Of a stretch of 64,000 nucleotides of DNA, positions 2,558 through 34,870 are shown in pieces (within the stretch, counting starts at the first letter, position 1; the number at the start of each line of letters is the position of its first letter). The notes under the pieces were generated by a model, which searched no databases, was not told the origin of the DNA, and saw only the letters and a program-made list of their open reading frames with translations. A program made the translations under genes and the position numbers. This stretch comes from Octopus vulgaris (lineage: Eukaryota): assembly GCA_951406725.2 (NCBI GenBank), contig OX597815.1, positions 82,832,001 to 82,896,000 of the forward strand. Direction: 5' to 3'.

Positions 2558-2559
<2 letters not shown>

Positions 2560-3237
2560 AACATCTAATTTAGGATAAAATTTTTCTAAAAAATTCTATC
2601 AATGGCCAGCATATTAAAAAATACCTTTAAAGGTTAAATTTATAAACAATTCGAAACCCGTTATTGTAGTGATAAATTACATGGTTATTGACGTGTCTAT
2701 TTTCGGCATATTTTGGCATTAGAATTTTTTTCTTTTGCCCTTACTTATAAATTGTTTATAAATTTAACCTTTAAAGGTATTTTTTAATATGCTGGCCATT
2801 GATAGAATTTTTTCGAATAATTTTATCCTAAATTAGATGTTAATTTAATACTGTTCACTTCCGGACTCTCTCACCTTACGAGAGTTTTCTGGCTCGAATC
2901 GCACGTGTATCGAGATGTGCTAGAGAGTTTCTATTTTGGATATATTTGGGGTACTTAATTGTGCTCATGATCTAGTGTTCACTTCTTCCATGGATATAAG
3001 TAAGTATTTCACTTATTTCTTTACCGCATTTATCACTGATGAAGAGAAGGTTCTTATGAGCTAACTCTGAAATCGGGTACGATATGGTAATAACGGGATT
3101 TTTTAGAAATTTCTGTCGGCTTTCTTCGTAACACGTGTTTGTAGTGATAAATTACATGGTTATTGACGTTGCGTCTATTTTCAGCATATTTTGGCATTAT
3201 ATATTTTTTCTTTTGCCCTTACTTATAAATTGTTTAT
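2558..3237 (+). mobile_element. ORF-less PLE-pLTR/retrozyme-like cassette (family C) between (TA)n tracts
   Basis: Inverted repeat 2558-2651 vs 2750-2843; direct repeat ~2665-2760 vs ~3139-3237; internal HHR at 3030-3090; homologous to 48241-48636. Confidence 0.75.
3030..3090 (+). ncRNA. Type-I hammerhead ribozyme, canonical core
   Basis: ttatca CTGATGA agag...ctct GAAA tcg-ggta-cga TA tggtaa; stems I, II and III all pair. Confidence 0.8.
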
Positions 3238-3269
3238 ATATATATATATATATACACCTATGCATATAG

Positions 3270-32327: not shown

Positions 32328-33243
32328 GTGCGCACACTAATTCACATACACACAGACACACATACATACACACAACATATACCTCCACGCGCACGCACAC
32401 ATACACATACGTACACACATATAAGCACAGTCGCAAACACATACATACGCTCACCAAAACATGCGCACACATACGCACGCACACGCGTAAAAAGAAACTC
32501 ACAACCCCACGGATACACGCATATACATCCATTTACGCTTACACACACATACAAACGCACACATACACGCACATACATACACACGTACACGCACACACAC
32601 ACAATTGAACCCACACATACATCCCATACGGCACACAACCATACATACACGCACACAATTATACATACATATATATACACACACACGCTCGTACAAGCAC
32701 ACACAAACACATGCACTAAGTTAAGCACAGTTACTCGCCATACACACAAAAAACGCACACCTACACACACACATACTACAACAAAACACACACACGATAC
32801 ATATACACGCACACACACATACCTCGCTGTTTCTGACCTGCCTTTCTGACTTGCTAGGGTGCCCCTACACCACTCCTTTAATTCTACTACTGCCTGCTAC
32901 TAGCCATTGTCCACCATACACACACATACACACACATACACACACCCTTGTCATCTCGCACACCTTTTTTACCATTCCTTCTTTGATTCAGCTCTCTTGT
33001 TTTTAAAAGCATTTTCCTCCTTTTTTACCACTTCCGTCTTTTTAGTATGTGACCTCGTGAATACTACCTGCAATGTTTTTTCCTCTGTCCTCCCGCCTCG
33101 GGATCTTTCTTTCTCCTATGTTTCCGACGAAGAGCTCCGCTCGAAACGTCAAACCCTCTTTTTCCCTTCTTTCCTGAGCGTCCAATAATACTTTATTTGT
33201 TCCACATCCTTGCGTTTTTGTCCTTTTGTTTTCTTGTTTGGAT

Positions 33244-33250
<7 letters not shown>
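32250..33250 (+). mobile_element. PLE 3' region: degenerate CA-rich tract plus family B pLTR ending at (TA)n
   Basis: 33045-33250 matches 38165-38375; same layout as 165-1190. Confidence 0.65.
33120..33154 (+). ncRNA. Minimal HHR, family B (CCGACGA core, GUC site)
   Basis: gttt CCGACGA a gagc-tcc-gctc GAAA CG TC aaac; stem I gttt/aaac. Confidence 0.75.
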
Positions 33251-33294
<44 letters not shown>

Positions 33295-33297
<3 letters not shown>

Positions 33298-33512
33298 ATA
33301 TGTTACAATTATTCAATAGTCAAGATAAAACTCTGAGTTTCGGATGCCGAAGTGGAAATCCACAACACCAGCTCTTCGGTTATCTGGCCATCTGAAAACT
33401 CAGAGTTTTATCTTGACTATTGAATAATTGTAACATATTATTTTATAGATAAATTTCCTCTATTTACATAATATTGAGGTCTCTTTCTTTCTTTTGCTAT
33501 CTTACCGTTTTT
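33295..33512. mobile_element. Fold-back HHR cassette (family E) between (TA)n tracts
   Basis: ~33295-33354 is the reverse complement of ~33387-33441. Confidence 0.8.
33323..33385 (-). ncRNA. Type-I HHR, CCGAAGA core
   Basis: agataa CCGAAGA gctggtgtt-gtgg-attt-ccac-ttc-ggcatcc GAAA CTC-A-GAG TT ttatct; stem I is a perfect 6 bp. Confidence 0.72.
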
Positions 33513-33540
33513 ACATATATATATATATATATATATATAT

Positions 33541-33606
33541 GTTTGCAAAATACAGTTTGCAGAATACAGTTTGCAGAATACAGTTTGCAGAATACAGTTT
33601 GCAAAA
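33541..33606. repeat. 14-bp minisatellite (gtttgcagaataca) x ~4.7
   Basis: Directly visible. Confidence 0.9.
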
Positions 33607-33890
33607 CCTAGCACTCTGGAGCCTACCCAGCTGTATTTATAGCACAGAGTCGCTCATCTTGCTACGGTCAAAAATTGTGAAGCATGACTGTCAACACTGC
33701 TGCATGGACCCGAAGATTGCAGAATTCAATGCATGAAAGTACTGGTTCAATCAGAATGAATATTTAACATTCTACTATTTCATTTTATTTTATTTTATTC
33801 AATTATAATATATTATCTTATAATATATCATTGTAGGATTGTAAATAAAACGTGAAAATCAGACAAGGTTGGAATTCTTTTTATTAATAT

Positions 33891-33974
<84 letters not shown>

Positions 33975-33978
<4 letters not shown>

Positions 33979-34700
33979 AAATGCCTTCACTTTGGCGCGC
34001 TGAGATCGGAAAATAGCGATTTGACGTCTATATCTAGCATCTTGACCGTCCACTTTTTGAGTGGTCAGTCCTTTGAATTTTGTATGTAAAAATATTTTAA
34101 TCTTCGGATTTTTTAATATGCTGGGCCACTGGTTTTAATTGATTAATATCAATTTCTACCCTTATTAAATTTTAAATTAAATAAATATGTTCTCTAACCG
34201 ATAAATTGACTGCTGCTACTTATTAGCTGCAGGGCGGTTTTTCCGATCTCAGCGCGCCAAAGTGAAGGCATTTGAAAGATAAACAAAAATATAATCGGTT
34301 GGACTCCATGCATGCGAGACTCCGGTCAAACGTTTTTACATCTAGTCCTGCAAATTGTATTTCTATATGACAGACCATGCTGACGAGATTAAAGTTTATC
34401 CTTGCGGATATTAATAATCGAAACTGATTCAGTACATGGGTAATCATTGTTATTTCGTATATTTTCATTTGTCTTGCTTATTTATAATGCTTTGGTTTTG
34501 TGCTGAGTTTTTATTTGAGAACATGTTCTTTATGGAAAATAGCGATTTGACGTCTATATCTAGCATGTTGACCGTCCACTTTTTGAGTGGTCAGTCCTTT
34601 AAATTTTGTATGTAAAAATATTTTAATCTTCGGATCCTTTAATATGCTGGGCCACTGGTTTTAATTGATTAATATCAATTTCTACCCTTATTACATTTTA
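33975..34700 (+). mobile_element. ORF-less greater-than-unit-length HHR cassette between (TA)n tracts
   Basis: Short inverted repeat ~33978-34013 vs ~34239-34274; direct repeat ~34008-34170 vs ~34534-34695; HHR at 34375-34439. Confidence 0.8.
34375..34439 (+). ncRNA. Fully canonical type-I hammerhead ribozyme
   Basis: ccatg CTGACGA gatta..tatcc-ttgc-ggata..taatc GAAA ctga-t-tcag TA catgg; all stems Watson-Crick; GUA cleavage triplet. Confidence 0.88.
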
Positions 34701-34722
34701 TATTATATATATATACATATAT

Positions 34723-34870
34723 ACGACGAGCTTCTTTCAGTTTCCGTCTACTAAATCCACTTACAAGGCTTTGGTCGGCCCGAAGCTATAGTAGAAGACA
34801 CTTGCCCAAGGTCCCACGCAGTGGGACTGAACCCGGAACTAGCTACTTACCTCACAGCCACTCCTACGCC
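34723..34870 (-). mobile_element. SINE S1 head
   Basis: Reverse complement of the S1 consensus. Confidence 0.85.

What the first reader, a model, noticed from the sequence alone, without database searches (positions are those of the whole stretch)
33975..34700. About 1.3-unit cassette with one perfect HHR: possible footprint of a ~525-nt circular RNA template
Seen: a ~165-bp direct repeat with ~526-bp period, no ORF, a fully canonical HHR (34375-34439) in mid-unit rather than at the ends, and a ~36-bp inverted copy of an internal segment at the left (TA)n junction. Inference: reverse transcription running more than once around a circular or tandem RNA, followed by a template switch, gives this permuted greater-than-unit layout (retrozyme-like). 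Alternative: the pLTR plus tail of a truncated tandem PLE.
Basis: partly seen in the sequence, partly recalled or inferred. Interest (0 to 1): 0.75.

Follow-up and report, generated by a model that had tools for sequence, protein, structure and literature searches.

The report
Truncated retrozyme copy, Penelope-style insertion
This is a cut-short copy of a protein-less repeat that carries a predicted self-cutting RNA and is scattered through this animal genome; it belongs to a known kind of genomic parasite, and the shape of its relatives suggests that a Penelope-type enzyme likely copies one short RNA, probably a circle, from two fixed start points into both sides of a DNA cut.

Summary
Observation confirmed: 167-bp repeat at 526-bp period, canonical type I hammerhead (34375-34439), 36-bp inverted piece. 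The cassette is one 5'-truncated, 1.3-unit copy of a dispersed ORF-less family with 506-526-nt units. About 110 insertions were examined. 3' ends are not permuted: 159 of 174 arms end at one of two fixed sites about 90 nt apart, then (TA)n. Head-to-head arm pairs use one site each (52 of 53). Autonomous Penelope-like elements (PLEs) in this genome also show two fixed ends. A young subfamily forms arrays of up to about 7 units. Units and both arms of one insertion mostly share one haplotype, and cut-site junctions carry no added bases, which fits a monomer copied repeatedly, probably a circle. No arm ran into an RT ORF; the partner PLE was not found. Against a single circle: a few mixed arrays and a weak excess of 5' ends at the cut. 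No RNA evidence was obtainable. Verdict: new member of the known non-LTR retrozymes (non-autonomous PLE type); circle template about 55%. This scan reported the same pattern earlier for other repeats in this genome.

The parts
33887..33975 (.). (TA)n target tract, left side
33978..34013 (-). 36-nt inverted second arm (unit positions +331..+366 counted from the cut), joined head-to-head to the main arm through the GGAAAA microhomology at 34008-34013
34008..34700 (+). Main arm, 693 nt = 1.32 units of 526 nt; 5' end truncated at +100 of the upstream unit; crosses the ribozyme cut once
34008..34174 (+). Upstream copy of the 167-nt repeat (pLTR-like overlap)
34367..34447 (+). Type I hammerhead (core 34375-34439) with extended stem I (ATGA 34367-34370 / TCAT 34444-34447); predicted cut 34434/34435
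34534..34700 (+). Downstream copy of the repeat; holds the family's short 3' site (about 34610) and ends at the long 3' site (about 34700), the inferred RT start of this arm
34701..34723 (.). (TA)n target tract, right side

Best explanation
The cassette is a 5'-truncated, one-hammerhead copy of a dispersed, protein-less 506-526-nt tandem-unit family (a non-LTR retrozyme) whose insertions were likely written by a Penelope-like RT/endonuclease into (TA)n tracts, probably from a circular monomer RNA. Steps: (1) a copy with two hammerheads is transcribed and would self-cut to a unit-length RNA (structure and covariation shown; cutting inferred). (2) The monomer is probably circularised (inferred; shown for coral, mussel and axolotl retrozymes in PMC7229834). 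(3) A PLE protein cuts a TA tract and primes on both strands, one arm at the short and one at the long internal site (end pattern shown; enzyme inferred). (4) Each RT runs on through the cut site for 0.1 to about 7 units until it drops off (shown). (5) The two 5' ends are joined head-to-head, often through short overlaps (shown). In this copy the long-site arm ran 693 nt and the second arm is a 36-nt non-canonical piece. My odds: class and PLE-type insertion about 0.9; circle as the usual template about 0.55-0.6.
For: Family: 3087 first-look candidates, 40 scored. Ends: 159 of 174 arms have a canonical 3' end, 88 long and 71 short. Pairing: 56 of 58 canonical head-to-head pairs are long+short; 52 of 53 after strict de-duplication; 39 of 40 when pairs picked by their 3' end are left out. 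Two fixed ends also occur in autonomous PLE families here: about 33 nt apart in two Neptune-like families, +35/+155 and +50/+200 in two hammerhead-bearing families. Arrays: 16 loci with arms up to 5.4 units; longest about 7.1 units among 36 scored of 1742 candidates, no satellite-size master among them. One haplotype per insertion: young subfamily differs 0.31% within an arm, 0.54% between arms, 1.46% between insertions; rare variants shared per kb 2.84 / 1.92 / 0.07; window subfamily 4.35 / 5.04 / 0.31. 20 distinct fixed haplotypes in 30 insertions with 3 or more segments. Cut junction exact in 165 of 172, the other 7 with substitutions only. 69 of 77 approaches read through the cut. Monomers fold as circles better than shuffles: z -6.0 young, -3.7 intermediate, -2.1 window copy.
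Against: No RNA evidence of cutting or of a circle. The partner PLE was not found: no sequence match between the unit and about 140 PLE endonuclease loci of several families. 9 variants are present in some but not all units of an insertion, against 98 fixed and 99 single; in L124 and L222 the first-copied unit of both arms differs from later units, which one circle cannot give. 8 of 104 arms stop at +1..+12 against 3.5 expected (p 0.024, window chosen after looking), which hints at some templates with a cleaved 5' end; a stronger pile-up lies at +73..+96 (25 against 7.4). No A>G excess among fixed private variants (3 A>G, 3 T>C of 12), so no RNA-edit proof of a single molecule. In vitro, PMC11167929 found unprocessed RNA to be the dominant substrate of a Poseidon PLE. 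Samples are top-scoring hits, not random draws.
Confidence: 0.6

Rival explanations
1. Same family and same PLE enzyme, but the template is a linear, uncut or partly cut multimer transcribed from an existing array; homogeneity within insertions is inherited from young parent arrays that were expanded or homogenised at the DNA level.
For: Mixed arrays in which both arms share a unit-position-specific variant (L124 +286, L222 +105) and two adjacent units share a variant (L134 +317). Weak excess of 5' ends at +7..+10, with both arms of L194 and of L044 stopping there. Unprocessed RNA was the main substrate in vitro (PMC11167929).
Against: 20 fixed haplotypes in 30 insertions need frequent passage through a single unit followed by re-expansion. 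Linear copying with 5' truncation can only shorten arrays, and no master longer than about 7 units was among 36 scored candidates.
Confidence: 0.3
2. RT copies linear cleaved monomers and jumps end-to-end from one to the next, so no covalent circle is needed.
For: Explains homogeneity and occasional haplotype switches, and some stops near the cut.
Against: 0 of 172 cut junctions carry added or lost bases. Template jumps by non-LTR RTs usually leave such scars (recalled, not tested here).
Confidence: 0.06
3. The cassette is only the pLTR plus tail of a truncated autonomous PLE.
For: Tail, inverted arm, TA target and type I hammerhead are all PLE features (PMC8557442 passages). A PLE 3' end lies directly to the left (33588-33897).
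Against: Longer copies continue into more units of the same repeat, not into an ORF. PLE protein matches in 168 family loci lay apart from the arms; the one same-strand upstream case, L036, is separated by a TA tract. The only shared non-unit 5' flank was a segmental duplication. The left neighbour belongs to another family and is separated by a TA tract.
Confidence: 0.04

Closest known systems
Metazoan non-LTR retrozymes (Cervera and de la Pena 2020, PMC7229834; passages and Discussion read)
   Same: ORF-less tandem units, one canonical type I hammerhead per unit, low GC (33%), monomers to multimers, structured monomer; that paper proposes circRNA templates and PLE mobilisation.
   Different: Unit 506-526 nt against about 300 typical. 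Circles were shown there and not here. The two fixed 3' ends, long+short arm pairing and TA targeting are not in the parts of that paper I read.
Non-LTR retrozymes as non-autonomous PLE derivatives (Li, Clavereau, Pollet 2026, 10.64898/2026.07.22.740005; parts 1-3 of 5 read)
   Same: Co-occurrence with PLEs; dispersed monomers and short arrays (75% of their families reach at most seven units); unit size within their 51-972 bp.
   Different: They find sequence homology to pLTRs in Xenopus and explain arrays by local amplification. Here no homologous pLTR was found, and arrays look written at insertion (fixed ends, multi-unit inverted arms of the same haplotype). No mollusc is among the groups they list.
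EN+ Penelope-like elements (Craig et al. 2021, PMC8557442, passages; Frangieh et al. 2024, PMC11167929, parts 1-2 of 4)
   Same: 5' truncation, partial tandems, inverted 5' copy, tail often on one end only, (TA)n targets, two internal RT start sites, extension of both strands.
   Different: No ORF; tail about 90-95 nt instead of 30-40 nt (hammerhead-bearing PLEs in this genome have about 120 and 150 nt).
Non-autonomous Chlamys elements such as MRC1 (PMC8557442, passage)
   Same: Non-autonomous PLE with pLTRs and multicopy head-to-tail insertions.
   Different: Chlamys mostly lack canonical hammerheads, and these elements resemble their partner at the 3' end.

Membership tests
Non-LTR retrozyme | Canonical type I hammerhead in each unit | tested here: met
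   144 of 157 matched units keep the core; covariation in all four helices
Non-LTR retrozyme | Tandem repeats with two or more consecutive hammerheads | tested here: met
   Met by the family (L097 two intact, arrays of 5-7 units). The window copy itself has one.
Non-LTR retrozyme | No protein coding, no LTR features | tested here: met
   No conserved ORF, no Pfam match; ends in TA tracts. PBS and PPT were not searched.
Non-LTR retrozyme | Self-cleavage of the RNA | not testable with these tools
   Predicted from structure only; in the 2026 preprint 1 of 9 predicted dimers cleaved in vitro
Non-LTR retrozyme | Circular monomer RNA in vivo | not testable with these tools
   Only assembled contigs of runs guessed to be RNA were available
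PLE-mobilised element | Fixed 3' ends at two sites (tail), variable 5' truncation | tested here: met
   159 of 174 arms
PLE-mobilised element | Inverted 5' copy, tail on one end only | tested here: met
   52 of 53 canonical pairs long+short
PLE-mobilised element | Microsatellite (TA)n target | tested here: met
   Flanks
PLE-mobilised element | Sequence similarity to the pLTR of an autonomous partner | tested here: inconclusive
   No match in about 140 endonuclease loci; each search scores only 150 hits, so PLE families were not exhausted
Autonomous PLE | RT and GIY-YIG ORF joined to the pLTR | tested here: not met
   No arm continued into an ORF in 168 family loci

The most novel reading that the evidence does not exclude
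Each insertion is a double rolling-circle event: a dimeric PLE RT primes both strands of one TA cut at two fixed sites about 90 nt apart on one circular monomer RNA, and both subunits run round it. This would explain in one model the PLE tail on one end only, the inverted arm, the pLTR and the tandem arrays of animal retrozymes, and gives a small defined substrate for testing it.
Probability: 0.4. Interest if true: 0.6.

Novelty: new member of a known kind. Interest (0 to 1): 0.3.

Why it matters
The copy itself is an ordinary dead insertion. Its family gives genomic evidence for a route that the papers I read propose but do not show: that PLE enzymes mobilise animal retrozymes, and that arrays are written at insertion rather than grown later. 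The near-strict long+short pairing of arms makes the PLE tail testable with a 500-nt RNA. My searches listed no paper describing a cephalopod retrozyme, but the library lacks most subscription journals, and this scan has already noted the same pattern in other repeats of this genome.

Tried and rejected
Rfam at gathering score: no hit. RNA: no RNA holder on record; two layings used contigs only, covered parts of the unit, and cannot show ends, strand or circles. Partner search: GIY-YIG family search and three endonuclease protein searches gave intact Neptune-like (781 aa, no hammerhead found in L091) and hammerhead-bearing PLE families (976-1091 aa), none matching the unit by blastn or by an nhmmer profile. 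A shared 5' flank in L233 and L254 looked like a partner junction but is a segmental duplication. The 59-codon frame after the cut is not conserved. RNA-editing signature, prompted by an earlier scan note: not seen. A sharp pile-up at the cut: only weak; 4 arms broken by later insertions and the non-canonical arms were left out of that count, as were arms chosen for length, and 19 arm records cut by locus edges were dropped before all counts. The de-duplication over-dropped 5 arms that were probably distinct, so bracket the pair count. Clade names of the PLEs rest on recalled motifs and on PMC8557442, not on a tree; one search gave only unnamed or hypothetical molluscan and metagenomic relatives. 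Supplements of the four papers were not read and may hold cephalopod entries.

Full report
Observation. All stated features are present: the 167-nt repeat at period 526, the 36-nt inverted piece and a type I hammerhead at 34375-34439. The strict descriptor finds 2 motifs in the window and none in 30 shuffles. Across 24 family variants the four helices keep 98.3% pairing with changes on both sides in 8 of 17 pairs. The genome is 2.8 Gb and rich in microsatellites; I take it to be a cephalopod from recalled repeats and from Argonauta among the named relatives of a resident PLE protein.

Family. The cassette has 3087 first-look candidates in its genome, of which 40 were scored. Five more DNA searches gave three related subfamilies with units of 526, about 511 and 506-507 nt. 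After removing duplicates I examined 174 arms in about 110 insertions. These are top-scoring hits, not a random sample.

Ends. 159 of 174 arms end at one of two sites, about +175 and +266 from the cut in the window's subfamily, followed by (TA)n; 5' ends are scattered. Many insertions have a second, inverted arm joined head-to-head, with short overlaps or gaps. Of 58 pairs with two canonical ends, 56 have one long and one short arm; after strict de-duplication 52 of 53, and 39 of 40 without pairs selected on their 3' end. Twelve further pairs, including the window copy, have one non-canonical arm. Autonomous PLEs of this genome also show two fixed ends, about 33, 120 or 150 nt apart by family. 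Craig et al. (PMC8557442, passages) describe the inverted copy and a tail often present at one end only. Frangieh et al. (PMC11167929) tie the tail to two internal RT starts and show extension of both target strands. The mid-unit hammerhead is therefore the expected result of internal initiation.

No ORF partner attached. Longer copies continue into further units: L097 holds two intact hammerheads 511 nt apart, and young arrays reach 5.4 units per arm in 16 fetched loci and about 7.1 units among 36 scored candidates. PLE protein fragments in 168 family loci are separate neighbours; 20 arms with neither a TA tract nor an inverted partner upstream share no ORF-bearing flank. The PLE end to the left of the finding belongs to another family. 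No autonomous pLTR matched the unit.

Template. For a repeated monomer: units of one arm and both arms of one insertion share rare variants far more than separate insertions do (2.84 and 1.92 against 0.07 per kb in the young subfamily; 4.35 and 5.04 against 0.31 in the window's). 30 insertions show 20 fixed haplotypes. 165 of 172 cut junctions are exact and none has added bases. 69 of 77 approaches pass the cut. The monomer folds well as a circle (linear fold z -6.1). Against a single circle: 9 variants are mixed within insertions, and in L124 and L222 the first-copied unit of both arms differs from later units; 8 arms stop at +1..+12 against 3.5 expected; there is no editing signature. The window copy's two repeats differ at 5 sites, and the substitutions scored are private to one repeat, so it is an aged insertion and uninformative on this point. 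RNA could not be tested.

Mechanism. A two-hammerhead copy would give a unit-length RNA, probably circularised as shown for other animal retrozymes (PMC7229834). A PLE protein cuts a TA tract and primes both strands, one at each fixed site; each RT runs through the cut until it drops off; the 5' ends are joined. The end pattern, array homogeneity and junctions are shown; cleavage, circle and enzyme identity are inferred.

Novelty. This is a new member of the non-LTR retrozymes, which a 2026 preprint already derives from PLEs. Searches listed no paper on cephalopod retrozymes. Earlier notes of this scan report the same anatomy for repeats of other unit lengths in this genome; a sequence look-up with the young unit returned nothing. 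Interest is modest: 0.3.

Noticed in passing
window 2558-3244: A second hammerhead cassette of another family with the same anatomy: period 475, type I hammerhead at 3030-3090, inverted arm 2558-2651 ending about 85 nt further along the unit than the forward arm, TA tracts on both sides. A relative with two arms is in L318.
   Followed up: partly
window 33541-33897: 3' end of a Neptune-like autonomous PLE family (95% to L094 over 33588-33897), with its 5' 14-mer repeated 4.5 times; it shares the TA tract with the finding.
   Followed up: partly
window 33261-33540: Short head-to-head repeat, 76-86% like L114, whose copies carry a hammerhead-like motif; 46-nt perfect inverted arms at 33295-33340 / 33396-33441.
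   Followed up: no
window 33060-33247: Abundant repeat end with a compact hammerhead-like core variant (CCGACGA ... GAAAC), seen in several other loci.
   Followed up: no
L165, L195, L197, L198; L289-L318: Autonomous hammerhead-bearing PLE families (976-1091 aa ORFs in the first) have tails of about 120 and 150 nt, far longer than the 30-40 nt described in PMC8557442.
   Followed up: partly
L293-L318 hammerhead: Stem II of this autonomous family resembles the retrozyme's stem II in two short words; a weak lead to the partner clade, not scored by nhmmer.
   Followed up: partly
family-wide, unit positions +73..+96: Strong pile-up of 5' ends, 25 against 7.4 expected, about 80-100 nt upstream of the short start site; unexplained.
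   Followed up: no
L055, L232, L256: More distant relatives of the unit with a different hammerhead and the same two-arm layout.
   Followed up: no
L091, L092: Neptune-like PLE with two overlapping ORFs (359 and 781 aa), many intact copies, and no hammerhead found in its pLTR.
   Followed up: no
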